The translations under genes and the position numbers were made by a program. Under the pieces are notes generated by a model, which saw only the letters and a program-made list of their open reading frames with translations, was not told where the DNA came from and made no database searches. A stretch of DNA of 59,083 bases, from IMG/VR virus record IMGVR_UViG_3300042568_000868, positions 1 to 59,083 of that record; one strand, 5' to 3'. Shown here in pieces: positions 28,851-48,564 of this stretch (position 1 is the stretch's first letter; each line of letters starts with the position of its first letter). The stretch is from a virus. Its lineage: Duplodnaviria; Caudoviricetes.

Positions 28851-28929
28851 CAGTCCAAATGTAACTTTTTTTCAAAATTTTTTATATTTTAGTGGAAATA
28901 TATAATTTTTTGGTAAAATTTTTTAGGCA

Positions 28930-29060
28930 TATTATGTATCTGAACACACAGAGGTAGAATTTTTTAGTAAAATTTTTTATAAATAATATATGCGAATGCT
29001 CAGAGGAATAATTTTTTTTAATATTTTTTGTTGATATTATATATCTGAATACTCAGAGGT
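28930..29060. repeat. Three imperfect ~26-bp direct repeats with ~52-bp period at the strand switch
   Basis: TATTATGTATCTGAACACACAGAGG / ATAATATATGCGAATGCTCAGAGG / TATTATATATCTGAATACTCAGAGG separated by T-tracts. Confidence 0.7.
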
Positions 29061-32152: not shown

Positions 32153-32223
32153 GGCCCTGTCGTCTATGGGTAGGACGCCACACTTTCAGCGTGGAAAACG
32201 AAGTTCGAGTCTTCGTGGGGCTA
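32153..32223 (+). tRNA. tRNA-Glu(TTC)
   Basis: Cloverleaf: GGCCCTG/TGGGGCT acceptor, D arm, CT-TTC-AG loop, CGAAG-TTCGAGT-CTTCG T arm; several G-U pairs and one anticodon-stem mismatch. Confidence 0.8.
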
Positions 32224-32234
32224 CAATAAAACAA

Positions 32235-33220
32235 AAATACTCTAAGATTGCCGCGCGGGCTACAAATGAGCAAGAACAATATTTGCAAGAGTATTTACTG
32301 TTTTTAGCAGGACATGTAGTGGTGTGAAACCACTTTTTCACTATGTCTTGCTTTTTAAATAAACCAATCTCAGATTGAAGCAACAGATAATCTAAGGACG
32401 TAAAAAATTCTGAGAATAGCCTCTTCGTAATGAATGTAGCTCAGGGAGACGATTATCGACCTAATGCAGTAGGTCAGTTTGTTAGATGTAGTAAAATCCA
32501 GTGAAAAACAGCGGTATTTATAATCCGAAATTAATAAGTATTACTCCACTACAAGGACTGAGATTGGTTTTAAATACAGTCGGAAAACATTGACACGACT
32601 TTAAATGAGAATACTAACCCTGAATACAGGGTGATTGAAATCAAGATAAACGTAGCTGCCGCGAAAGCAATCTGTAGAAATACACAGTCATAAATTACGA
32701 ATTCTTCAATGGGGCCAGAATGAGAGAGTTCGGGCATTTCAATCGGAGTAATCCTAGATGTGTTGTTTCCTTGAGAAAGGAATGATTGAATATATGGAAG
32801 CAGGACTACCTATATCAACACAAATGAGTTCTCAGCAAAGATGATTAATCCAACGGAGGAAAGCATAGTAATATGTGAAGGACACTCAAAAGGGATGCAG
32901 ATAACCAAAGTCTTAGAAAGGTCTGTAATCATCGTGACCCTATTATCTTATTAGTTTGTGCCTATAAAAACAAGGCTGTATAACTGTTCTAATAGGATAT
33001 TAGGGTGCTAAAAACAAATATATAATAATTGATGCATCTAAGGGGTCTCCGATGTAATATTCGGGGGCAAGTCTAACCCAAAGCCTCTCATTATTGTATT
33101 AATATCTATATTTTATATCAAACGGCAAGGAATCGGGTCCGATATAAATTACTCATCCATATATAAAGTATAGATACAACAGTGATAGGGTTGCATACCA
33201 TAAGAACTGCACCCTATCCA
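32235..33220 (+). ncRNA. Cluster of structured non-coding domains (~1 kb)
   Basis: No credible ORF; successive domains each closed by long stems, e.g. 32361-32373/32558-32570 (13 bp perfect). Confidence 0.6.
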
Positions 33221-33229
33221 TTTTAACAG

Positions 33230-33301
33230 GTCACCTACTTCAGTTGATGATAGCCAATTGAAGCCACGGAAGAAAGGAGTTCGAATCTCTAAGGTGGCAC
33301 A
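33230..33301 (+). ncRNA. tRNA-like element without anticodon arm
   Basis: GTCACCT/AGGTGGC acceptor + ACA, GGAG-TTCGAAT-CTCT T arm, one long hairpin replacing D and anticodon arms. Confidence 0.55.
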
Positions 33302-33349
33302 AACATTTTTATTCTAATCAATTGTTTAACACTCAAAATTATCAAAATT

Positions 33350-38951: not shown

Positions 38952-39397
38952 CTTTAAAATGGTTTGATAGAGAAGTTCTATGTGAATTGATTAAAAGTCA
39001 AGGCAATACAACTATCATAAGAACAAACGAGAAAATAGACGAAAAGAAATGCATGTTTAATTGGGTTCCATCATCAATCTATCAAAAGAGAATAGAAGGA
39101 TTCCAATGTTACAAAGTGATTCCAGTAGTCTTTGAATCAAATATATCTAGTCCTGCTCAGGAAGAGATAGATTGGATTAAAAACAAAGTACTAACAACTA
39201 ATTCTGAATCAATATCAGACATGACTATGTTAGTAAATCTATCTATATTTGAATCTAAATTAAATAAGAAGCTTCACAGCTACTTTGTAAAGAAAATCAT
39301 ATTCGATACCGCAAACGAATTGAAAGAATTAATTGCAGAACAAAATAGAAAGAGAGAAGAATTAATAGAGTTTCAACTAAATCAATTACCTTTTTAA
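38936..39397 (+). CDS. Hypothetical protein
   Basis: ORF in operon, ends QLPF. Confidence 0.6.
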   Translation: MQSIVTLKWFDREVLCELIKSQGNTTIIRTNEKIDEKKCMFNWVPSSIYQKRIEGFQCYKVIPVVFESNISSPAQEEIDWIKNKVLTTNSESISDMTMLVNLSIFESKLNKKLHSYFVKKIIFDTANELKELIAEQNRKREELIEFQLNQLPF

Positions 39398-39398
39398 G

Positions 39399-39725
39399 AT
39401 GAATTGGAATTTAGACTGGGAAAGAGACAATAAATACAAGAGAATGAGACTTGCTAAAGCCTTATCTCCATCTTGTATCCCATTGAGTTACAATGAACTA
39501 GTATTAACTACTAGAAAGAAGAATCCTTGCGAATACATGTTGAATGCTGTTAAGTGTATCAAAAAACGCTTAAGTATTTCATATGGATTGACAAAAGATT
39601 CCTTCTTAGAGCTTATGACATCAAGCTACTTTAAGGTAGAAGACTATCAAATCGAGCTAAAAAAGGCAGGAGATTTAGATAGTGGATGGTGTTTCATGAT
39701 AAGAGGGTATTATTTAACACCTTAG
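39399..39725 (+). CDS. Hypothetical protein
   Basis: ORF in operon. Confidence 0.6.
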   Translation: MNWNLDWERDNKYKRMRLAKALSPSCIPLSYNELVLTTRKKNPCEYMLNAVKCIKKRLSISYGLTKDSFLELMTSSYFKVEDYQIELKKAGDLDSGWCFMIRGYYLTP

Positions 39726-39730
39726 AATAA

Positions 39731-39877
39731 ATGAAAGTTTGTAAAGAACAGTCTAGTTGGTTTTGCTCCGGACCATACTGTAAGACTTGCCTTTTTGGAG
39801 TATTGGATTCAAGTAATAATTCTAAAATAATTATTGATGAAGAAGAAGAATATCGCCTTAGTGACGCGCAACACTAG
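39731..39877 (+). CDS. 48-aa four-Cys microprotein
   Basis: Manual translation MKVCKEQSSWFCSGPYCKTCLF...EEEE. Confidence 0.5.
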   Translation: MKVCKEQSSWFCSGPYCKTCLFGVLDSSNNSKIIIDEEEEYRLSDAQH

Positions 39878-39973
39878 ATTTATTATCGTCAAATGGCGGA
39901 TGGAAGAACGATAAGCCATAGATTCTTGGTTGAGTCTATGGTAACAAAGCTATCTAACCTTAATATACATAAT

Positions 39974-40519
39974 ATGAATGTAAAAGAAGAAGTAGAGAAG
40001 GCTAAAAATGGGTCAGAAAAGGCCTTTACTAATCTGTATAATGAATTCCAAAAGGTAATTTATGTAGCGATATACAATATAGTAAAAAACAAAGAAGTCG
40101 CAGAAGACTTAACATCTGAGACATTTATAAAGATTTACAAAAACTTACACAAATACACAAAAGACTTTTCATTTGTTATGTGGGCTAAAACAATTGCAAA
40201 TCATCATGCTATTGATTATATACGTAGCGGTAAGAATCAATACAACACTCAATCACTTGACGATGAGATGGCAAATGTTATAGAGATTTCTGATTATACA
40301 GATCCTGAAACAAGCCTTATAAACAAAGAGATGGCATTACTAGAAAACGATGCCATTAAGTCATTAACCAAAAGAGAGTATGAAATAGTAAAATTAAGAG
40401 AAGAAGAAATTCCATACTCCAAAATAGCGGAGGAACTTGGAGTTAGCATAGGGACTGTAAAGAGTTCTATTCACAATTATCGTAAAAAAATTAAAAAATA
40501 CATAACCAAAAAAGAATGA
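39974..40519 (+). CDS. ECF-type sigma-70 factor
   Basis: Region 2 (AEDLTSETF, WAKTIANHHAIDYIR) and region 4 (IAEELGVSIGTVKS), no region 3. Confidence 0.92.
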   Translation: MNVKEEVEKAKNGSEKAFTNLYNEFQKVIYVAIYNIVKNKEVAEDLTSETFIKIYKNLHKYTKDFSFVMWAKTIANHHAIDYIRSGKNQYNTQSLDDEMANVIEISDYTDPETSLINKEMALLENDAIKSLTKREYEIVKLREEEIPYSKIAEELGVSIGTVKSSIHNYRKKIKKYITKKE

Positions 40520-40523
40520 GTAT

Positions 40524-40922
40524 ATGAAAAAGACAAATCAATTGTCCTCTAGCATTATCAGATTTTTGCTTGAGACGTTTCTTGTTGTTTTATTGGGTGT
40601 GTTTGTTGGAGGAATCCAAGCTACAAATAGCTTAACTGTAATTCGTTCTGAATCCGGAATTTCTTGTGCCAATCACATAGAAAAAGGAACGAAAATTGAA
40701 ACAGTTAAGAAAACTGTAGTTTCTTCAACTAAAGATTGTGTTTGTAATAAAGATGTGTATACACAAGTGTCTCGCAAAAGCCTTGTGATGAATACACTTA
40801 CTTTGTCTAAAATTACAAATAACAATCTTGCTAGCAAATCGACATTGCCGGCAACACCCACTGTTCTAACTGAAAGAGCTCACAGTCCTCCAAGGAGTGA
40901 CAACATAGTTAATACTAGTTAA
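40524..40922 (+). CDS. Membrane-anchored hypothetical protein
   Basis: N-terminal TM helix; directly after sigma. Confidence 0.55.
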   Translation: MKKTNQLSSSIIRFLLETFLVVLLGVFVGGIQATNSLTVIRSESGISCANHIEKGTKIETVKKTVVSSTKDCVCNKDVYTQVSRKSLVMNTLTLSKITNNNLASKSTLPATPTVLTERAHSPPRSDNIVNTS

Positions 40923-40996
40923 GTTAAAATAAAAAAACAAAGAAGAAAAAAGAGAAAGTTAGATTTATCAAAAATTTAAAAAAAGGAGGAATTTAT

Positions 40997-41857
40997 ATGA
41001 ATCTTCAAATGAACATGGATCATATGTTCAAATACCGTGAAATCCTTGTAGCAAAATCAGAGCTTGCAAGGCAGTGTGGAAACCAAAGACAGCTAAATGC
41101 TCTATTGAAGAGTATTACCGCAATAGATGTTATGTTGGAATCCGCTTTAATGGCAACAGTTGATAAATGCATGCCTGAGATTAAGTTTAATCTTGATATG
41201 TTTGATTCAACCAGTTTGCAGTTCTTAATGCCGAATGTGAATATCGCATTATTACCAAAAGACACACAAGTAACCCTAAAATTTGATAGCGAAGATGAAA
41301 CTCTACCCAATGGAGACGAAAAGGCATCTACCGTATCAATCATCGAAGGATTATTGAAAAGCAACTTTACCTCAAATATAGAAACTGCAGTAAATCTGTA
41401 TATTGAGAAAATTGATGCAAGTGCGTCGTTAGCCGAAGCATGGTTATCCATCGTAGCTTTATTTCCCGAAAGAGAAGTATTTAAAGTTTGGCACAATTAT
41501 CTAACATCCATTTTCCGTACGCAAGGACCAATAGTTGCATTTGCATCAGCAAAGAAGCATCTTAAACAATGGGATGATTTAGAAGTAGCCAAGTTTATTG
41601 GAAAGCTAATTGAAGATCGCATTGCAACAGAGCCGTATTCTATTGCCAACGAGCTTCAAAATGCCATGAACCCTACTCAAGCCCAAATCTATGGGTATAT
41701 TGAGGACAAAAAGATTTCTTCTTTGATTGACAAAATGAATCTTGAAAACATTAAATCAAAACAAGAATTCGTCCATCGGGTGGTAGCCTATTGCAATCCT
41801 TCCAAAAGAGAGCAAATAGAAAAGCGCCGGAAGAATTATGTAGAGAAAGGTTATTAA
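40997..41857 (+). CDS. Hypothetical protein
   Basis: 286-aa ORF. Confidence 0.65.
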   Translation: MNLQMNMDHMFKYREILVAKSELARQCGNQRQLNALLKSITAIDVMLESALMATVDKCMPEIKFNLDMFDSTSLQFLMPNVNIALLPKDTQVTLKFDSEDETLPNGDEKASTVSIIEGLLKSNFTSNIETAVNLYIEKIDASASLAEAWLSIVALFPEREVFKVWHNYLTSIFRTQGPIVAFASAKKHLKQWDDLEVAKFIGKLIEDRIATEPYSIANELQNAMNPTQAQIYGYIEDKKISSLIDKMNLENIKSKQEFVHRVVAYCNPSKREQIEKRRKNYVEKGY

Positions 41858-41875
41858 CTATAAATTGAGTGCAAA

Positions 41876-42274
41876 ATGAAAAATATAGTTAAATTTATCT
41901 GGATCCTCTCTATGTTTTGTTTAGGGATGTTTTTCCACACACACGACTTAGTGTCTGTCGAGAACATAAAATACAAAGCGATTTCTACATCTGAGTTAAT
42001 CAACAAAGATGTTCAATGTGTTTCTGACTTACTTAAAGTAAGCAAGGGATATCCTGAAACCACTAAAGCAATTAAACCTGCTCTAGTAAAATGTAAAGAG
42101 ATAAAAACTATTAAATCATCGAACAAGGAACTTGCCGCTACGAGAACCTCTGAGAACACGTTTAATAGAACATCTGAATCTGGAATAGCAACGTCGTTAG
42201 ATGAGCCTGGCTCCAGTGGAATACTTCATATTGATTATACAAAGAATCCTATCGAAGTTGTTTTTACATTTTAA
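41876..42274 (+). CDS. Hypothetical protein with signal/TM segment
   Basis: Hydrophobic N-terminus. Confidence 0.55.
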   Translation: MKNIVKFIWILSMFCLGMFFHTHDLVSVENIKYKAISTSELINKDVQCVSDLLKVSKGYPETTKAIKPALVKCKEIKTIKSSNKELAATRTSENTFNRTSESGIATSLDEPGSSGILHIDYTKNPIEVVFTF

Positions 42275-42286
42275 ATAAAGAAAGTT

Positions 42287-42661
42287 ATGGATAAAGTAAA
42301 AATTGAAATTGCAAGATTAGTTTCTTGCAGAGTAAGAAGGCTCAAGGAAGCATTAATGGAAACAAGGGAATTGCGTTATGTCAAATTATATGGCAGTGAA
42401 AGATACGAATTCAACTTAAGAGAACTCCAAGAAAAGCTCGAGTTTGATATTTTAACATATCAGACAAGAATCAAAAAAAGTCTTTGTTCATTAACTGGAT
42501 ATTCCAGTAAAACAGATCTCGAGATAGAATATTTATCAAAAGAAGATCTTAAATCAGAAACTTTAGATATCTCTAAATTGCAAGATGGGAGTCGCCTCTT
42601 GAATTTGAAAACAGGAGAAATATCTACACAGAGAGCTAGAAATCTGTCTAATCCAAATTAG
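42287..42661 (+). CDS. Hypothetical protein
   Basis: 124-aa ORF. Confidence 0.6.
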   Translation: MDKVKIEIARLVSCRVRRLKEALMETRELRYVKLYGSERYEFNLRELQEKLEFDILTYQTRIKKSLCSLTGYSSKTDLEIEYLSKEDLKSETLDISKLQDGSRLLNLKTGEISTQRARNLSNPN

Positions 42662-44320
42662 CTATACAGATACCTTTTAAAACAGAAAAGGGGTATGTAT
42701 ATAGAGTTAGTTAACATGTATAATCTTTTAATTAGTATATGCTGGCTTGATGATGGATCAATTAAATTTGCCAGATACTAAAAGCGATTGGGAGCTATCG
42801 CTATACAAAATGCTCAAAAATGTAGGTGATACGTGGTTGCAGCCTAGACCGAAAGGGAATATCGTCAAGCAACAACAAGGTGTTTAAGCTTCACTATAGA
42901 AGAAGTAGAATCTATGTCTTAGCTTTTGAACTAAGCAGGAGATTAAGGCGAAGGCCGACATGTTTTTAGACATTCACGCAATATCAATGAGAAGCGGAAA
43001 GGTGTGTCCCTTTCAGAATGTAATAGTATGCTTCACAAGCAGACCATGCACATGGGAAAAAAGTGCAGAATAAATCAGTTCAATTTGAGTTTATTCACAA
43101 TATATTAAATTAGGCGGAAGAATAAACAGGTTTGAAAGAAAACCCCGGCCAGAAGACGACGGTATTTATATGGAAACATGTAAACGAGATTGATCTATTT
43201 AATATAAAATCGCTGCAAAAGTTATATGGTGAAACATTTAATCTAAGCACAATAGGCGATATAATTCAGCTCTCAAGTCTTGGCTTAATTTGGGTTCGAT
43301 TCCCAATATACCTTTAGGTTAAAAGATGCAGACATTCGTCGTTTCGAGATGTTAGACGAAGTAAAATAAGGAACATCCAGGCATCGCTGTGTTGTAGTGG
43401 CCTAAAACTACTGATGGACATTCTAGTAATAAAAGCTAGAGAACCTGAGAATCGGGGTATAACGATAGTCTTAACCCTAAACCAACGTCCCTTAATTCAC
43501 TATTCGACGAGACAGAAATGTGATATATCAGATACTATCCTACCGGCGATAAAACGTATCGCTTTAGCATAAAAGTAGTGTATTACTGTCTATAATATGC
43601 GAAAAGAACTGAAACAGTTCAATGCTTCTCAATAGTGGAAGGTCAACCACTCAAAAACCTTATTTAGAGGTCCCCTAATGAGCGCAAGTGATGATTAGGT
43701 ACTCTACTCCAATAAACAAATTCTAGACCCTTAGCGGGGCGCTAAATGCGTCGAAACTAAGCCTACATTAGCTCGATCAAGTGATTACTAATGCGGTACA
43801 CAAGCTAGATTACAAAACTCAACCCAGGTGTAAGCCCTGGCATAGGAACTTCAGAAAACTATCTCCTCATTAGAGACAGGAATTGATACAAAGTTCGTTG
43901 TTTTACCAAAGTTTTATCTTTTTTCCAAACAAAAAAGTATATGCAAAAACATATGTCTCTTTAATTCTATTTCAATATATTGCTATTAGTGTATTTGAAT
44001 CGAAGTTATGACTCGACAGTTGTTCGATAGATTGTAAAGATAATAATGTGATAGAGCCACATATTACTTGGACAATATATGTTTTAGCATCCCAATTATA
44101 TAAATATGGACTGCATTGGCGTAAACCCAAATCGTTATCGTAAATAACGTGTCTATTTAAAAACAACAGAATTCTTTAAATGTAAGACGATAGTTAAGTT
44201 AACCCCGCATGGTGAACATTACGTCCTGTTAAAAGAAAGTATAGTAAAAAGATTTACTGTACGTAGACGCTCAAAAAATTCTACAATAAGTTTTATCGTA
44301 AGAGTTTAGTAGACTACAAA
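42662..44320 (+). ncRNA. Candidate large structured non-coding RNA (~1.7-kb gene-free tract)
   Basis: Many local hairpins, nested long-range complementarities and an internal T-arm; strand inferred from loop motifs and flanking genes. Confidence 0.55.
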
Positions 44321-44365
44321 AAGAGAAAATAAAATAGTTTTTTAATCAATAAAAAATATAAAGTT

Positions 44366-44836
44366 ATGAGCAAAAATAAAATGAAAAATTTCCAAGGTTT
44401 ATTTGGAGGCGCAATTCACTCTATCGTAAGTACTTCAGTTGACGCAGGATACCGGGCTAAGTCCGATGAAGAAAAAATCAATGTACAAGCTAAATTGTAC
44501 ACAGTAAAAACTGTAAACGTAAACAGCTTGAAGCTTGCAAAAGCAGAAGGTGGTGTTGACGTTGTTATCGTTAACGGAGGCGAAGAAGGCCTAACTTTAC
44601 CATGTACCCATGAATTTGTTACCAAAGCCGATCAAGTTGCCACATCTACTGATGGTGTAACTGGAAAATGGTTTGGAGAATATGCCGTTTGTGCAGATTT
44701 CTGCAATGCAATGAATGGAGCTGAAAAAGCTCGACTAGAAAAGATCATGAAAGATCTTCAAGGACAAATCGGCTGTTTGACTGATGTAATTTCTGCAAAC
44801 AACCAAAAACGCGAAGTATATAACTTCGAAGACTAA
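44366..44836 (+). CDS. Hypothetical protein
   Basis: 156-aa ORF with A-rich leader. Confidence 0.7.
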   Translation: MSKNKMKNFQGLFGGAIHSIVSTSVDAGYRAKSDEEKINVQAKLYTVKTVNVNSLKLAKAEGGVDVVIVNGGEEGLTLPCTHEFVTKADQVATSTDGVTGKWFGEYAVCADFCNAMNGAEKARLEKIMKDLQGQIGCLTDVISANNQKREVYNFED

Positions 44837-44844
44837 TACTTGCC

Positions 44845-45387
44845 ATGAGAGTAAAATTGGATCGGTACGACAAGTTGAGACTAGCCGAGCTAGTTGACTC
44901 TTGTCTTACCATAACCAACGACTACACAATTAGTAGTAGTGGTGAAGTAGATTACTCTGAACAAGGTCTGGTAATGAGAGTCATAAAAGGCGTGGAAGCG
45001 TCTAAAATGGATTTCCTTACAGTAGTACATAATGTATCCGAATCAATCATGGGTAGAGTTAATTTAAATGATTACTCTAAATTCCTATGTGGTAAAGCAC
45101 TTGGAATTTTGATTGATACAAATAACAGACCAGAAGTAATCAAATGTCTTTATGCAGCCTTTCTGCTTAAGGACAATCTGCTTGCAACACCAAATGGACG
45201 TGGAAATGCCAGCCAAGGTCCACTAAAAATAGATAAAATAGAAAAGGTGACTAGAACGGAAATCGTACCGGCAAAATTTGAAAAGATTCCTACTAGTAAT
45301 GACCTTGCTCGAAATTTATCTAAAGATGTTGCAAATATCTTGAACAACGAACTCGAAAGAGGCTCTATTATCGTAATTAATGAATAA
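44845..45387 (+). CDS. Hypothetical protein
   Basis: 180-aa ORF. Confidence 0.65.
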   Translation: MRVKLDRYDKLRLAELVDSCLTITNDYTISSSGEVDYSEQGLVMRVIKGVEASKMDFLTVVHNVSESIMGRVNLNDYSKFLCGKALGILIDTNNRPEVIKCLYAAFLLKDNLLATPNGRGNASQGPLKIDKIEKVTRTEIVPAKFEKIPTSNDLARNLSKDVANILNNELERGSIIVINE

Positions 45388-45610
45388 AAGCATAAATCAA
45401 TAATATATTTTATTTAATCTAGAGAATTCAGCTAGAGTAACATCCTAATTGATATTTGTGTATAGTTGGAGTAACATCGTAATACTATATACATGTCGAA
45501 ATATCAGGCTATGTTTTCTTGAAATTGAATTTTAAATATATTATTGGTTGAAAAAAAAATATTAATATAGGAGAGGGGTAACACCCTTTCCTATATCTAA
45601 TAATATGTAA

Positions 45611-45645
45611 ATGGTTATTGTAGGTTCGATTCCTACTATCATACA
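45611..45645 (+). ncRNA. tRNA minihelix-like element
   Basis: GTAGG-TTCGATT-CCTAC T arm flanked by ATGGT/ATCAT stem and ACA. Confidence 0.4.
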
Positions 45646-45710
45646 CGGGAAGATTAAGATTTCTGGTTGAACAATTAAAAAAAGTATCAATCTTAAATAA
45701 TAATCAATAT

Positions 45711-46187
45711 ATGCAAAACATTTTTAACAAACTTACAGTAAAAAAGAATTTCACTCCAACACAATTGATCGAAAAACGCGAATCTCTAATTGAAGATATC
45801 AAACGCGAATGGAAACGAATCCTATCTTTCAATGTAGTTACCAACGGTACAAAACAAGTGTTTGACTTGAAAGCTGTATATAAACAAATTAAATCATTTG
45901 AAGCTGATTTAATCGACATTAAAGTATCTATCCAGGCTGTGAATATGGGATTAACCTCTCTATCTCAAATGCCTAAAGAAAGCTCCTATCCATCAATCTT
46001 CATCTTATCTCAATTGAAAGAGCATAAGTTGAAATTGCAAAAAATTCCTACAAAAAAAGAGGAAGGAGAATCAGTAGTTTTCACTCGAAAATTCATTGAT
46101 GAAGAAGTAGGAAAAATTGACGCACAAATCAAGAAAATTGAAAAAGAACTTGCAGATTACAATTCAGAAATCGTTTTTACAGTCTAA
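45711..46187 (+). CDS. Hypothetical coiled-coil protein
   Basis: 158-aa helical ORF. Confidence 0.65.
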   Translation: MQNIFNKLTVKKNFTPTQLIEKRESLIEDIKREWKRILSFNVVTNGTKQVFDLKAVYKQIKSFEADLIDIKVSIQAVNMGLTSLSQMPKESSYPSIFILSQLKEHKLKLQKIPTKKEEGESVVFTRKFIDEEVGKIDAQIKKIEKELADYNSEIVFTV

Positions 46188-46190
46188 CGT

Positions 46191-46913
46191 ATGGTTATAT
46201 TATTAGAAAACAAAGTTTTACCATGGGAATGTGAAGTTCTCACGTATAAATTGCACGAGAAATTAACAAACTCGATTATATTCGTAAATGCCCAGATGCC
46301 ATTATTTGATTTGGTATGTAAAGACAGACGAGACAGCTCCAAACGAGTTATTCAAAACAAGCTGCGAGGTGATTCATTTTGTGATTACGTTACAGATGAA
46401 GAACTCAAAGAAAAAGGCGTATCTGTTGCAAGAGAACGAATATACGAGCAACTTACTCGACGAATGAACGAATATGGATTCTATGACGATCTTGAGACTA
46501 ATAGTGTAACATCTAAAAGCCCAATATTCATAGTGTCTAATCTTGACGACAAACTAAAGAATGAATTCACTGACTCATTTAGTAATACATACATACTTAA
46601 TAAGGAGGAAGGGAAATACACTATTGAGAGTTTTCTTGAAAGTAGTGATATTCTTTCATGTTTAAGTGGGATGCTAAATGAAGGGACTGAGGTTATTCAA
46701 AATGAAGATGACTTGCTGGCCTTTATTGAAGAAAAGAAGGCAGAAAAAGCCAAGTTAGATGCAAATAAGTCTTTAATCGAAGACGAAGAGCATCAAAACT
46801 TATCAGAGCATCTTGACAGACTGGCGCATACAGAGATTTTTGATTTCGGACTTGCAGAGCCGCCAACTGATAGAGCTGTTGATTTTCAAGAGCTCGTAAT
46901 GAATGCTGCATAA
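46191..46913 (+). CDS. Hypothetical protein
   Basis: 240-aa acidic ORF. Confidence 0.65.
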   Translation: MVILLENKVLPWECEVLTYKLHEKLTNSIIFVNAQMPLFDLVCKDRRDSSKRVIQNKLRGDSFCDYVTDEELKEKGVSVARERIYEQLTRRMNEYGFYDDLETNSVTSKSPIFIVSNLDDKLKNEFTDSFSNTYILNKEEGKYTIESFLESSDILSCLSGMLNEGTEVIQNEDDLLAFIEEKKAEKAKLDANKSLIEDEEHQNLSEHLDRLAHTEIFDFGLAEPPTDRAVDFQELVMNAA

Positions 46914-46926
46914 AAACAAAAAAAAA

Positions 46927-46984
46927 TAGGAATGATGGTGAAGTCGCTTAATAGCGAACTGGGTTCAATCCCCAGATTCTAACA
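46927..46984 (+). ncRNA. Truncated tRNA-like element
   Basis: GGAAT/ATTCT stem, TCGC-TTAATA-GCGA hairpin, CTGGG-TTCAATC-CCCAG T arm. Confidence 0.45.
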
Positions 46985-47045
46985 AAACAAATCCTTTCAG
47001 ATAATATCACATAGAAATTTTTAAACTTTAAAGTAATAAAAACCT

Positions 47046-47606
47046 ATGCTGATAGAATTGGATTTAGATGAGGCGAAACGCCTTAAACTAACAATTAATC
47101 AGTTTTTATTGATTAAACTACTAATAGACAAGATCGATATCAAATCGTTGCTGGATGTTATCCCCATCAGCGAGAATGACGTTAGTATTTTAATTGAAAA
47201 AGATGTATTGACAAAAGAGTCTCTTGGCAGAGATATAAACAAAGTCGAACTAAGCGAAAGAATACTCGGAGAGATAAATCAAAGAGACTATTTTATGGAA
47301 TTTTATAACCTATATCCTATATCAGTTACAAGAACTGACAATAGGAAGGACTACTTAAGATCTGACATGTCTAGATGTAGAAGGTATTATGAAAAGGAAA
47401 TAGGAAATAGCTTAGCAAAACATGAACATATGATGAATTGTCTTAGATTCGAAACAGAGTTGAGAAGAAGAGAAAATTCAATGGGGTTCATGAAACGAAT
47501 GAGCAAATGGCTTATGTCTGAAGAATGGCTAATATACAATGATGCTATGCAAGAAAACTCAGGCAAGAAAGAAGAAAGATATCAGTATGGAACAGACATC
47601 GAGTAA
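47046..47606 (+). CDS. Putative replication protein upstream of helicase
   Basis: FMEFYNLYP, M..WL...W motifs; overlaps helicase start. Confidence 0.55.
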   Translation: MLIELDLDEAKRLKLTINQFLLIKLLIDKIDIKSLLDVIPISENDVSILIEKDVLTKESLGRDINKVELSERILGEINQRDYFMEFYNLYPISVTRTDNRKDYLRSDMSRCRRYYEKEIGNSLAKHEHMMNCLRFETELRRRENSMGFMKRMSKWLMSEEWLIYNDAMQENSGKKEERYQYGTDIE

Positions 47607-48564
47607 ACTTTTAAAATATAAGCACATATCATCTGCCACGAATGAAATAATAGAATACATAAAAGATCGTAGAACAGGAAGCGTTAAATCACTTAGAACT
47701 AGGTGGTTTAAATTCAATAAACTCTGTATGGGTGGAATTGAACCTAATGCAATATATTCTGTAGCTGGAATATCTGGCAGTGGGAAGTCTTCCTTTGTAA
47801 ACGCACTTGAAACTGACTTGATTGATTTAAATCGAGACGAAAAGACTATAGTATTAAGTTTCTCATTTGAGATGCTTAGTTCTAAACAAGTCGGACGAAA
47901 ATTATCTTATAAATTGAAAAAAACTACATCAGAATTATACTCTGCTTCAGATAATGGAGCTTTGTCTGATACTGACCTTGAAAGAGTCGAAGAAGCTGGC
48001 ACTTCTATAAAGGATTACCCTGTGTATTATGTTGATACACCTGGTACTGTTCCTCAGATTGCTGCTACTATCGAATTCTTTCAAAATACAATAGCCAAAG
48101 GGAAATGGCTTGTAGTTATCATTGACCATACATTATTAATTAATGGTAGTGGCAGTGAAAGAGAAATTATCGTAGATCTCGAAAAAGTATTAATAGGAGC
48201 CAAAAAGGTCGGAAAGACTTCTATAATACAAATATCTCAGATGAATAGAAATATCGAAGCATCAGAGAGGATGAATAATCCAACGCTTCATTATCCACAA
48301 AGAGGTGATTTATCAGCATCAGATGCTGTATTTCAAGCTAGTGACTACGTCTTGGTTATACACAGACCAGAAGTGTTAGGACTAATGTCCTATGGATATA
48401 ATAATCTTCCCGTAAAAGATTGCATTTATATGCACTTTTTGAAAAACCGAGAAGGAGTTCTTAAAGTACTTAAGTTTACAAACGACTTAAAATACAATAA
48501 TATAAAAGAATTCGATGATGAAGCAAAAAAAGATGACCAACAAAAACAATTAGAATTTGATTAA
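47587..48564 (+). CDS. DnaB-like (SF4) replicative helicase
   Basis: Walker A AGISGSGKS, FSFEM, IIDH, SQMNR, QASD, KNREG. Confidence 0.92.
   Translation: MEQTSSKLLKYKHISSATNEIIEYIKDRRTGSVKSLRTRWFKFNKLCMGGIEPNAIYSVAGISGSGKSSFVNALETDLIDLNRDEKTIVLSFSFEMLSSKQVGRKLSYKLKKTTSELYSASDNGALSDTDLERVEEAGTSIKDYPVYYVDTPGTVPQIAATIEFFQNTIAKGKWLVVIIDHTLLINGSGSEREIIVDLEKVLIGAKKVGKTSIIQISQMNRNIEASERMNNPTLHYPQRGDLSASDAVFQASDYVLVIHRPEVLGLMSYGYNNLPVKDCIYMHFLKNREGVLKVLKFTNDLKYNNIKEFDDEAKKDDQQKQLEFD

What the first reader, a model, noticed from the sequence alone, without database searches (positions are those of the whole stretch)
42662..44320. 1.7-kb gene-free tract with nested long-range pairing: candidate giant ncRNA
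Seen: in an otherwise tightly packed genome this tract has no credible ORF. It has many hairpins (e.g. GAACT-GAAAC-AGTTC, GCGATA..TATCGC, TTCGTC..GACGAA, CCAGG..CCTGG) and nested long-range complements: 42819-26/43762-69 (8 bp), 42988-95/43624-31 (8 bp), 43101-10/43197-206 (10 bp). There is an internal T-arm TTGGG-TTCGATT-CCCAA at 43290-43306. Established: GOLLD and ROOL are large structured RNAs often found in phages near tRNAs. Inference: a structured RNA of about 1 kb or more, possibly a new class. Individual 8-bp matches can arise by chance in AT-rich DNA.
Basis: partly seen in the sequence, partly recalled or inferred. Interest (0 to 1): 0.8.

Follow-up and report, generated by a model that had tools for sequence, protein, structure and literature searches.

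The report
Large structured RNA in crAss-like phage
The 1.7-kb gene-free stretch of this lake-water crAss-like phage carries conserved, base-paired RNA elements that related phages keep at the same place in their genomes, so it most likely encodes a large non-coding RNA of a kind that matches no catalogued RNA family.

Summary
The tract 42662-44365 is truly ORF-free under every single stop-codon reassignment. Local folding energy is no better than shuffles, the 8-10-bp long-range complements occur at chance frequency and are not kept in relatives, and the "T-arm" is not a tRNA. Comparative evidence nevertheless supports the idea. The window is a crAss-like phage. 43 of 57 related loci of at least 12 kb have a 1.0-2.2-kb ORF-free tract at the same syntenic place. 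Twelve distinct tracts of the window's own clade share colinear islands with compensatory base changes. Four models built without the window each hit the 59-kb window exactly once, on the + strand and in colinear order: 42782-42821 (E 8e-7), 43632-43660 (E 0.04), 43841-43904 (E 1.7e-10) and 44113-44154 (E 3.6e-5). The last element is a double hairpin that recurs in human-gut Suoliviridae tracts, whose 470-nt core has 22 covarying pairs. No Rfam 15 family matches, and my literature searches found no description. Transcript ends, unity of the RNA and function are not shown. Best reading: a new class of large structured phage RNA, comparable in kind to GOLLD and ROOL.

The parts
42662..44365 (+). 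Whole ORF-free tract between the 124-aa and 156-aa genes. It is the syntenic equivalent of the 1.0-2.3-kb tracts in related crAss-like phages.
42782..42821 (+). Block A: hairpin 42784-42788/42797-42801, whose loop (42792-42795) pairs with 42812-42815 as a pseudoknot, followed by an A-rich single strand.
   Evidence: An HMM built from 7 relatives without the window hits here only, E 8.1e-7. Pair counts: 97.2% of cells paired against 24-54% when slid, and 6 cells changed on both sides.
43290..43306 (+).
   Evidence: Rfam tRNA 21.6 bits, below the threshold of 29. ARAGORN calls none at default. Similar TTCGA-loop hairpins with different stems occur in tracts L004, L062, L066, L070 and L077, and by eye in L194. 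No formal covariation test was made.
43606..43620 (+). Hairpin GAACTG-AAA-CAGTTC. It aligns with a hairpin of different sequence (AGCC..GGCT) in relatives.
   Evidence: Alignment printed, read by eye. No separate count was made.
43632..43660 (+). Block D (island 1): hairpin AGTGG..CCACT plus an A-run. It is the most conserved sequence island of the clade.
   Evidence: The pattern scan of viral contigs gave 14 loci, 10 of them in syntenic tracts. An HMM built without the window hits here only, E 0.039.
43841..43904 (+). Block E: nested helices 43846-43850/43892-43896 and 43851-43854/43883-43886, and an inner hairpin 43859-43865/43873-43880.
   Evidence: Covariance model R1, built from 10 relatives without the window, gives one hit in the window: 56.6 bits, E 1.7e-10, all 15 pairs standard. 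Pair counts: 89.0% paired against 76.4% in shuffles (0 of 500 reach it), and 23 cells changed on both sides against 8.0.
44113..44154 (+). Block F: double hairpin (44116-44119/44127-44130 and 44132-44138/44144-44150, with a loop containing GUAA). It is the only element shared with the human-gut lineages.
   Evidence: Model R2, built from 15 relatives without the window, gives one hit in the window: 34.4 bits, E 3.6e-5. In 80 loci it gives 40 hits, all on the + strand and one per locus.
44155..44365 (+). AT-rich spacer (GC about 0.28-0.31) carrying the motif TTAATCAATAA at 44342-44352, just before the 156-aa gene. It is probably the start region of the next transcription unit and not part of the RNA.
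   Evidence: This is inference.
42287..42661 (+). Upstream flanking gene (124 aa), conserved next to the tract in the clade. Function unknown.
44366..44836 (+). Downstream flanking gene (156 aa). Its fold is shared with uncharacterised proteins of seven crAss-like phages, including a 185-aa protein of cr115_1. Function unknown.

Best explanation
The tract encodes, on the + strand, a large structured non-coding RNA. Its conserved structured elements span at least 42782-44154, about 1.4 kb. It belongs to a family that Suoliviridae-like crAss phages keep at one syntenic place, between the sigma-factor gene cluster and the replication genes. The RNA is built of short, strongly conserved hairpin, pseudoknot and GNRA-loop modules separated by fast-evolving variable stretches, as in other large ornate RNAs. 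Shown: synteny, sequence islands, compensatory base changes, strand specificity, and absence of coding potential and of any catalogued RNA family. Inferred: that the modules belong to one transcript, made together with or after the upstream early/middle genes and ending before the promoter-like motif at 44342. Also inferred: that it acts in trans as a folded scaffold during infection, an RNA-only or RNA-protein assembly of the kind seen for GOLLD and ROOL, and is not a leader of the next gene.
For: The Crassvirus capsid Pfam family scores 700 bits. The nearest annotated records are Suoliviridae. 43 of 57 related loci of at least 12 kb have an ORF-free tract of at least 1,000 nt upstream of the helicase, with gene order kept. 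Twelve distinct tracts of the window's clade measure 1472-2305 nt, with a longest ATG ORF of 52-70 aa. Colinear islands link the window to them. Four models built without the window each hit it once, + strand only, in colinear order. Covariation is seen in block E, block F, block A with its pseudoknot, and in 21 helices of an RNAalifold run on the 12-sequence alignment. In the gut lineage a 470-nt core is as conserved as the replication genes (84.7% against 82%) while neighbouring genes are at 68-70%. That core has 111 predicted pairs, 98.9% paired, and 104 cells changed on both sides against 29.4 in shuffles (0 of 500 reach it). It also has eight invariant G-U/U-G pairs, which would be A-C mismatches on the other strand. 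None of the 13 small ORFs of the tract has a tblastn match in 251 related loci.
Against: Local MFE is no better than shuffles. Only about 300-400 of the 1704 nt are anchored to conserved blocks. The stretch 42830-43560 has almost no detectable relatives. Blocks A, D and E are confined to the window's clade. The link to the gut lineages rests on synteny and one 42-nt motif, whose second hairpin I first collected with a regex that required pairing. That motif lies near the 3' end of the tract in the window's clade but in the 5' part in the gut lineages. It is weak or absent in the cr125_1/cr115_1 group. No transcript, ends, promoter or terminator is shown. The RNAalifold structures were derived from the same alignments on which the pairs were counted. 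The sequences are related, so the shuffle controls overstate significance.
Confidence: 0.6

Rival explanations
1. The tract is not one giant RNA. It is a string of separate small structured RNAs and cis-regulatory elements (terminators, processing sites, a leader or attenuator of the downstream operon) lying in a long intergenic region.
For: Conserved blocks are short (30-65 nt) and separated by poorly conserved stretches. No supported long-range helix joins distant blocks in the window. The double hairpin lies about 210 nt before the 156-aa gene in the window, and within roughly 175-420 nt of the end of the tract in the other clade members where it was found.
Against: In the gut lineages the same double hairpin lies more than 600 nt from the next gene. 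There it sits in a 470-nt core with nested long-range helices, for example alignment columns 22-25 with 490-493 and 36-43 with 341-348. A promoter-like motif shared with other operon-start genes sits between the last block and the start codon. Tract length of 1.5-2.3 kb is maintained across the clade.
Confidence: 0.22
2. The tract is a cis-acting DNA element: a replication origin, packaging site or promoter cluster.
For: It lies about 3 kb upstream of the helicase gene. The 3' 450 nt are AT-rich.
Against: There are no iterons or repeats in the tract. Helices keep G-U pairs and all model hits are on one strand, which fits RNA and not DNA hairpins. The divergent junction with 52-nt tandem repeats at 28904-29060 is a better origin candidate.
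Confidence: 0.05
3. The tract is decayed or unrecognised coding sequence: pseudogenes, tiny proteins or recoded genes.
For: Phage early regions often hold very small genes. Thirteen ORFs of 30-64 aa exist in the tract.
Against: No stop reassignment opens it. None of the 13 ORFs has a tblastn match in 251 related loci totalling 3.2 Mb. The gut-lineage core has 3-20 stops in every frame. Substitutions are compensatory in helices.
Confidence: 0.04
4. The tract is a tRNA-derived element (pseudo-tRNA, tRNA-like structure or tmRNA piece) or a self-splicing intron.
For: The T-arm-like hairpin, with a 6-of-7 acceptor-like pairing, scores 21.6 bits against Rfam tRNA. Relaxed ARAGORN proposes intron-bearing tRNA and tmRNA models. 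tRNA genes, and tmRNA genes in cr125_1 and cr115_1, lie nearby.
Against: The tRNA match is below Rfam's threshold, and nothing is called at default settings. The relaxed ARAGORN calls are mutually overlapping and of low quality. No group I or II intron model matches up to E = 10. The flanking ORFs are complete genes with their own stop and start. This could explain about 95 nt at most, as a relic inside the variable region.
Confidence: 0.04

Closest known systems
[quoted passage not shown]
   Same: It is a large, ornate, non-coding RNA of unknown function carried by phages. It is found in lake-water sequence and often sits near tRNA genes (size, phage and tRNA association are recalled; the name and the cryo-EM multimers are from the listing and abstract of bioRxiv 10.1101/2024.12.08.627333). 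Here the DNA also comes from lake-water metagenomes, tRNA genes lie in the same gene block, and the RNA has conserved modules between variable stretches.
   Different: There is no match to any Rfam model, GOLLD's included, at gathering score or at E up to 10. The tract is longer (1.4-2.2 kb). The host phage group differs (crAss-like). Multimer formation is untested.
ROOL RNA (Rumen-Originating, Ornate, Large)
   Same: It is a large structured RNA of unknown function linked to phage or prophage DNA and tRNAs, found by comparative analysis of intergenic regions (Weinberg et al. 2017, PMC5737381; listing and abstract only; details recalled). Some relatives of this tract come from contigs named like rumen or gut metagenomes.
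   Different: There is no Rfam match, no shared motif found, and a different size.
tRNA / tmRNA T-arm
   Same: The hairpin 43290-43306 has a T-loop-like heptaloop and a 5-bp stem, and an acceptor-like pairing is possible.
   Different: It scores below the Rfam tRNA threshold and ARAGORN makes no call at default. Relatives keep a hairpin there, or a TTCGA-loop hairpin elsewhere in the tract, but no cloverleaf. It is most simply a T-loop module of a larger fold, or a tRNA relic.
Group I introns of crAss-like phages
   Same: They are structured RNA inside crAss-like genomes (their presence in crAss-like genes is recalled from Yutin et al. 2021; I searched that paper only for six other terms). A split helicase match in L166/L167 may be one.
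   Different: The tract lies between two complete genes, not inside one. No intron model matches up to E = 10.

Membership tests
GOLLD (Rfam) | Match to the family covariance model at or above its gathering score | tested here: not met
   cmscan of the whole window at gathering score gave only two tRNAs. 42400-44500 at E up to 10 gave no GOLLD row. Relatives' tracts gave none either.
ROOL (Rfam) | Match to the family covariance model at or above its gathering score | tested here: not met
   Same searches.
GOLLD / ROOL as a kind | Homo-oligomeric RNA-only assembly | not testable with these tools
   This needs cryo-EM or native gels.
tRNA | Cloverleaf scoring at or above 29 bits (Rfam RF00005), or an ARAGORN call at default settings | tested here: not met
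   21.6 bits, E 0.22, at 43220-43314. ARAGORN at default finds only tRNA-Glu and tRNA-Tyr elsewhere in the window.
Group I / group II intron | Match to an intron model, and insertion within a gene with exon continuity | tested here: not met
   No such row up to E = 10. The flanks are separate complete ORFs.
DGR template repeat | A near-copy (variable repeat) elsewhere in the genome | tested here: not met
   No repeat of any part of the tract longer than a 28-nt, 75% chance-level match in the 59-kb window. The record is only 57% complete, and a reverse transcriptase was not searched for.
crAss-like syntenic large RNA (family proposed here) | ORF-free tract of 1-2.3 kb between homologues of the 124-aa and 156-aa genes, upstream of the helicase module | tested here: met
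crAss-like syntenic large RNA (family proposed here) | Block E nested-helix element (model R1) | tested here: met
   56.6 bits, E 1.7e-10, with a model built without the window. It is confined to the window's clade.
crAss-like syntenic large RNA (family proposed here) | Double hairpin with a GUAA-containing loop (model R2), on the + strand, once per genome | tested here: met
   34.4 bits, E 3.6e-5, in the window. 40 of 80 loci have one + strand hit. There is one strong hit in each of three 86-94-kb genomes.
crAss-like syntenic large RNA (family proposed here) | A discrete, abundant transcript | tested here: inconclusive
   5 of 21 short contigs (depth about 2) from 3 of 4 lake metatranscriptome runs fall in the tract, in proportion to its length. 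DNA carry-over is not excluded.

The most novel reading that the evidence does not exclude
A previously uncatalogued class of giant ornate RNA (1.4-2.2 kb) is a conserved core component of Suoliviridae-like crAss phages, from lakes to the human gut. It folds into a compact tertiary structure (GNRA loops, T-loop, pseudoknot). It works in trans during infection as an RNA-only or RNA-protein machine, such as a nanocage-like scaffold, a ribozyme, or a decoy for a host translation or defence factor. Its modules have been rearranged between lineages: the signature double hairpin sits in the 5' part of the tract in gut phages and in the 3' part in the lake clade.
Probability: 0.35. Interest if true: 0.85.

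Novelty: new variant of a known kind. Interest (0 to 1): 0.75.

Why it matters
crAss-like phages are among the most abundant viruses of the human gut and are widespread in the environment. Their early regions are almost entirely unannotated. A 1.4-2.2-kb structured RNA held at one genomic position across many genera would be one of the largest bacterial or phage non-coding RNAs outside rRNA. In the gut lineage its core is as conserved as the replication genes. It would add a new class beside GOLLD, ROOL and OLE, whose functions are a long-standing open question. Hundreds of natural sequence variants exist in public metagenomes, so its structure can be tested directly by covariation analysis and cryo-EM. 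RefSeq records of cr125_1 and cr115_1 leave the region largely or wholly unannotated.

Tried and rejected
Similarity searches.
- Nucleotide searches of the tract against INPHARED phages found no match.
- blastn and nhmmer against the first 80 related loci found none.
- tblastn of the flanking proteins against INPHARED found none.
- Close-relative scans with the two flanking proteins found none.
- Relatives were reached only through the helicase and a conserved-island pattern.
- An HMM of the whole gut-lineage tract, and one of its 470-nt core, found nothing in the window, L002 or L004.
- Model R1 found nothing in 26 loci of other lineages.
- HMMs of blocks A and D found nothing outside the window's clade.

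Features looked for and not found.
- Alternative genetic codes do not open the tract.
- Repeats, iterons, tandem repeats and a DGR-like copy are absent.
- Sigma-70-like promoter sites number 9 against 10.5 expected. Of the 5 terminator-like sites, all are on the minus strand, 3 lie within the tract and none is conserved.
- A Bacteroidota -7 promoter consensus (a recalled motif) is not conserved in the tracts.
- Relaxed ARAGORN gave only overlapping low-quality tRNA and tmRNA proposals.
- Pfam and PHROGs gave nothing for the flanking genes, apart from one weak PHROG of unknown function for the second downstream gene.

Flanking proteins.
- AlphaFold models of the 156-aa and 124-aa proteins (pLDDT 79.9 and 90.8) had no PDB match at E of 0.001 or better.
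- The viral library returned only uncharacterised crAss-like proteins.
- The neighbours therefore give no clue to function.

RNA runs.
- Four lake-water metatranscriptome runs, held only as contigs, were laid on 39000-48000.
- 5 of 21 short pieces (depth about 2) lie in the tract: 43038-43188, 43127-43277, 43230-43380, 43544-43761 and 43645-43930. The rest lie in flanking genes.
- This shows neither transcription, strand, ends nor level. The runs had been picked for holding words of this stretch. Parts without cover are not interpreted.

Rows left out of the counts.
- L199 was left out of the block E alignments A2 and A4 because it aligned poorly.
- L165, L166 and L194 were left out of block F (A3, A7) because they had no regex match.
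- L002, L004 and L199 were left out of A5.
- L002, L004, L193 and L199 were left out of A6.
- Near-identical duplicates (L167, L171, L173, L174 and others) were left out throughout.

Literature.
- Searches found no description of a non-coding RNA or long non-coding region in crAss-like phages.
- Passages read in PMC9226505, PMC8145447 and PMC12386605 were unrelated.
- Six search terms had no relevant occurrence in PMC7886860: five did not occur, and 'RNA gene' occurred only in the reference list.
- Supplements were not seen and could hold annotations that I missed.
Full report
What the window is. The window is a whole 59,083-nt IMG/VR virus record, estimated 57% complete. Genes run leftward up to about 28.4 kb and rightward from about 29.2 kb. 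The 490-aa product of 14216-15688 matches the Crassvirus major capsid family at 700 bits. 39893-40519 encodes a sigma-factor-like protein. 47539-48564 encodes a DnaB-type helicase. Two tRNA genes (Glu, Tyr) lie at 32153 and 38338. The DNA is held by lake-water metagenomes. Four lake-water metatranscriptome runs that I laid carry contigs, most of them at least 99% identical to the window.

Checking the observation. The tract 42662-44365 is the largest ORF-free stretch of the window. Reading any one stop codon as sense does not open it. The quoted complements and the T-arm-like hairpin are literally present. They carry no weight, for four reasons.
- Exact complementary 8-mers number 40 against 36.1 +/- 7.9 in 200 dinucleotide shuffles. 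Complementary 10-mers number 1 against 2.6.
- In my alignment of 11 relatives the three proposed long-range helices keep 0-5 of 8 or 10 pairs.
- MFE z-scores of 200-nt windows average about -0.5 on the + strand, no better than the neighbouring coding windows.
- The tRNA-like match at 43220-43314 scores 21.6 bits against a threshold of 29.

Synteny. The helicase retrieved 80 related viral loci and 80 metagenome loci. Of the 57 viral loci of at least 12 kb, 43 have a tract of at least 1,000 nt free of ORFs of 70 aa or more, several kb upstream of the helicase. Gene order around it is kept. Two RefSeq Suoliviridae genomes, cr125_1 and cr115_1, have about 1.85 kb and 2.2 kb without a CDS at that place. 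The tracts of 47 loci fall into one nucleotide-similarity group of 38, one of 6, and three singletons. The window is a further singleton.

Linking the window to relatives. Pairwise low-stringency blastn showed short colinear islands between the window, L002 and L004. An 18-nt degenerate pattern from one island found 14 places in IMG/VR. Ten of them lie in syntenic tracts of crAss-like contigs whose helicase is 74-75% identical to the window's. Four are elsewhere and look like chance. A further helicase scan added more. The result is 12 distinct tracts of 1472-2305 nt, each between homologues of the 124-aa and 156-aa genes (p156 was not detected in L166) and each with a longest ATG ORF of 52-70 aa. 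An E-INS-i alignment shows conserved blocks in the same order in all of them.

Tests that leave the window out. Four models were built from relatives only, and each hits the 59-kb window once, on the + strand. An HMM of block A hits 42782-42821 at E 8.1e-7, and an HMM of block D hits 43632-43660 at E 0.039. Covariance model R1 of block E hits 43841-43904 at 56.6 bits and E 1.7e-10, with all 15 pairs standard. Covariance model R2 of block F hits 44113-44154 at 34.4 bits and E 3.6e-5. The hits are colinear with the blocks in the relatives.

Covariation.
- Block E, 11 sequences (L199 left out): 89.0% of cells paired against 76.4% in shuffles (0 of 500 reach it). 23 cells are changed on both sides against 8.0. 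Sliding the partners gives 26-47%.
- Block A hairpin plus loop pseudoknot, 8 sequences: 97.2% paired against 24-54% when slid, with 6 cells changed on both sides.
- Block F, 16 sequences from all lineages: 89.6% paired, with 36 cells changed on both sides against 10.8. The second hairpin was collected with a regex that demanded five pairs, so its 100% pairing is by construction. The first hairpin (76.6% paired, all four pairs covarying) was not selected that way.
- The regex motif occurs at the hairpin-2 site once per tract in 44 of 59 tract sequences (L164 and L165 also have an unrelated second match). By my own arithmetic, not a call, about 0.01-0.03 would be expected per 2 kb.
- RNAalifold on the 12-sequence alignment gives 21 helices. 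All have at least one pair changed on both sides, and nine are fully or nearly fully paired in the window.

The gut lineage. In the 38-member group a 470-nt core is 84.7% identical between subgroups. The replication genes are at 82%, and the neighbouring early genes are at 68-70% or undetectable. All six frames of the core carry 3-20 stops. RNAalifold predicts 111 pairs, 22 of them with changes on both sides. Pairing is 98.9%, with 104 doubly changed cells against 29.4 in shuffles (0 of 500 reach it) and 32-46% when slid. One stem carries a 50-nt insertion in L007. Eight pairs are invariant G-U or U-G, which fits RNA read from the + strand. R2 finds 40 hits in 80 loci (1.25 Mb, both strands). 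All are on the + strand, one per locus, at the syntenic place. It finds one strong hit in each of three 86-94-kb genomes. In cr125_1 the hit is weak, and in cr115_1 the best hit is elsewhere.

Limits. Only about a fifth of the window's tract is anchored to conserved blocks. 42830-43560 is essentially lineage-specific, apart from two weak islands and a hairpin that aligns with the T-loop-like hairpin. Blocks A, D and E are confined to the window's clade. Homology with the gut RNAs therefore rests on synteny, the 42-nt double hairpin, and a structural match of the downstream protein to a 185-aa cr115_1 protein. That length equals the gene just after the tract, but I did not verify identity. The double hairpin sits near the 3' end of the tract in the window's clade and in the 5' part in the gut lineages. 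This points to rearranged modules, or to a mobile module. The sequences are related, and the structures were partly derived from the same alignments, so the shuffle controls are generous.

Transcript. No promoter or terminator is established. The motif TTAATCAATAA occurs exactly five times on the + strand. Four copies lie 16-24 nt before the start of a gene that follows an intergenic gap, and one of these is at 44342, before the 156-aa gene. With up to one mismatch the motif occurs 17 times against 8.4 expected, a count that 0 of 100 shuffles reach. I read it as the start region of a new transcription unit. If so, the structured elements would lie outside that gene's leader. This is inference. 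The metatranscriptome contigs are uninformative.

Known families. cmscan against all 4227 Rfam 15 families gave nothing in the tract at gathering score. Up to E = 10 it gave only the weak tRNA match and chance-level rows. The same holds for relatives' tracts. The tract is therefore not a member of GOLLD, ROOL, OLE, tmRNA, RNase P, an intron or any other catalogued family, as far as covariance models can see.

Mechanism. The most likely reading (0.6) is a large trans-acting structured RNA of the early/middle region, a new class of the same kind as GOLLD and ROOL. The conserved GNRA-type loops, the T-loop-like hairpin and the pseudoknot are the sort of modules that build compact tertiary folds. 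I favour a scaffold, assembly or decoy role, but nothing here tests function. The main rival (0.22) is a set of separate small RNAs and cis-regulatory elements. A DNA element, decayed genes, and a tRNA or intron relic are each unlikely.

Novelty. My eight literature searches and the passages I read found no description of this RNA. Supplements were closed.

Noticed in passing
window 28904-29060: Three copies of a 52-nt tandem repeat (74% matches) lie in the 755-nt gap where leftward structural genes and rightward early genes diverge. It is a candidate origin or promoter region.
   Followed up: no
window 30268, 33678, 35897, 36940, 44342 (+ strand): The exact 11-mer TTAATCAATAA occurs five times on the + strand. 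Four copies lie 16-24 nt before the start codon of a gene that follows an intergenic gap. With up to one mismatch it occurs 17 times against 8.4 expected. It is also kept before the L002 homologue of the 156-aa gene. It may be a phage promoter or start-region motif.
   Followed up: partly
window 32384-33349: A second ORF-poor tract of 966 nt lies just downstream of tRNA-Glu. It was not examined for structure or conservation.
   Followed up: no
L166 6906-7769 and 8628-8759; L167 4758-5621 and 6480-6611: The helicase homologue is split into two tblastn pieces about 860 nt apart in two related contigs. This suggests an intron or intein insertion.
   Followed up: no
L082 260-709 and 1060-1251; L083 96-457 and 985-1170: RefSeq annotates a tmRNA gene and a ribosomal-protein-like gene a few kb upstream of the ORF-free tract in cr125_1 and cr115_1, with tRNA-Leu two genes downstream. 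Translation-related genes therefore cluster around the tract.
   Followed up: no
tracts of L062, L066, L070, L077 (tract coordinates 530/570, 247/284, 252/290, 510/547): In these lineages a TTCGA-loop (T-loop-like) hairpin follows the signature double hairpin by 37-40 nt. In the window the T-loop-like hairpin (43290) lies about 840 nt upstream of the double hairpin (44132). The modules seem to be rearranged between lineages.
   Followed up: partly
window 44366-44836: The predicted fold of the 156-aa protein (beta-sheet domain plus a long C-terminal helix) matches uncharacterised proteins of seven crAss-like phages at E 7e-7 to 1.5e-5, and nothing in the PDB. It is a conserved crAss-specific protein family next to the RNA.
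   Followed up: partly
window 42665-42702: A long imperfect hairpin (ATACAGATACCTTTT...AAAAGGGGTATGTAT) starts 3 nt after the stop codon of the 124-aa gene. Relatives have different conserved hairpins at the same spot. It may be a terminator or processing site marking the 5' side of the RNA.
   Followed up: no
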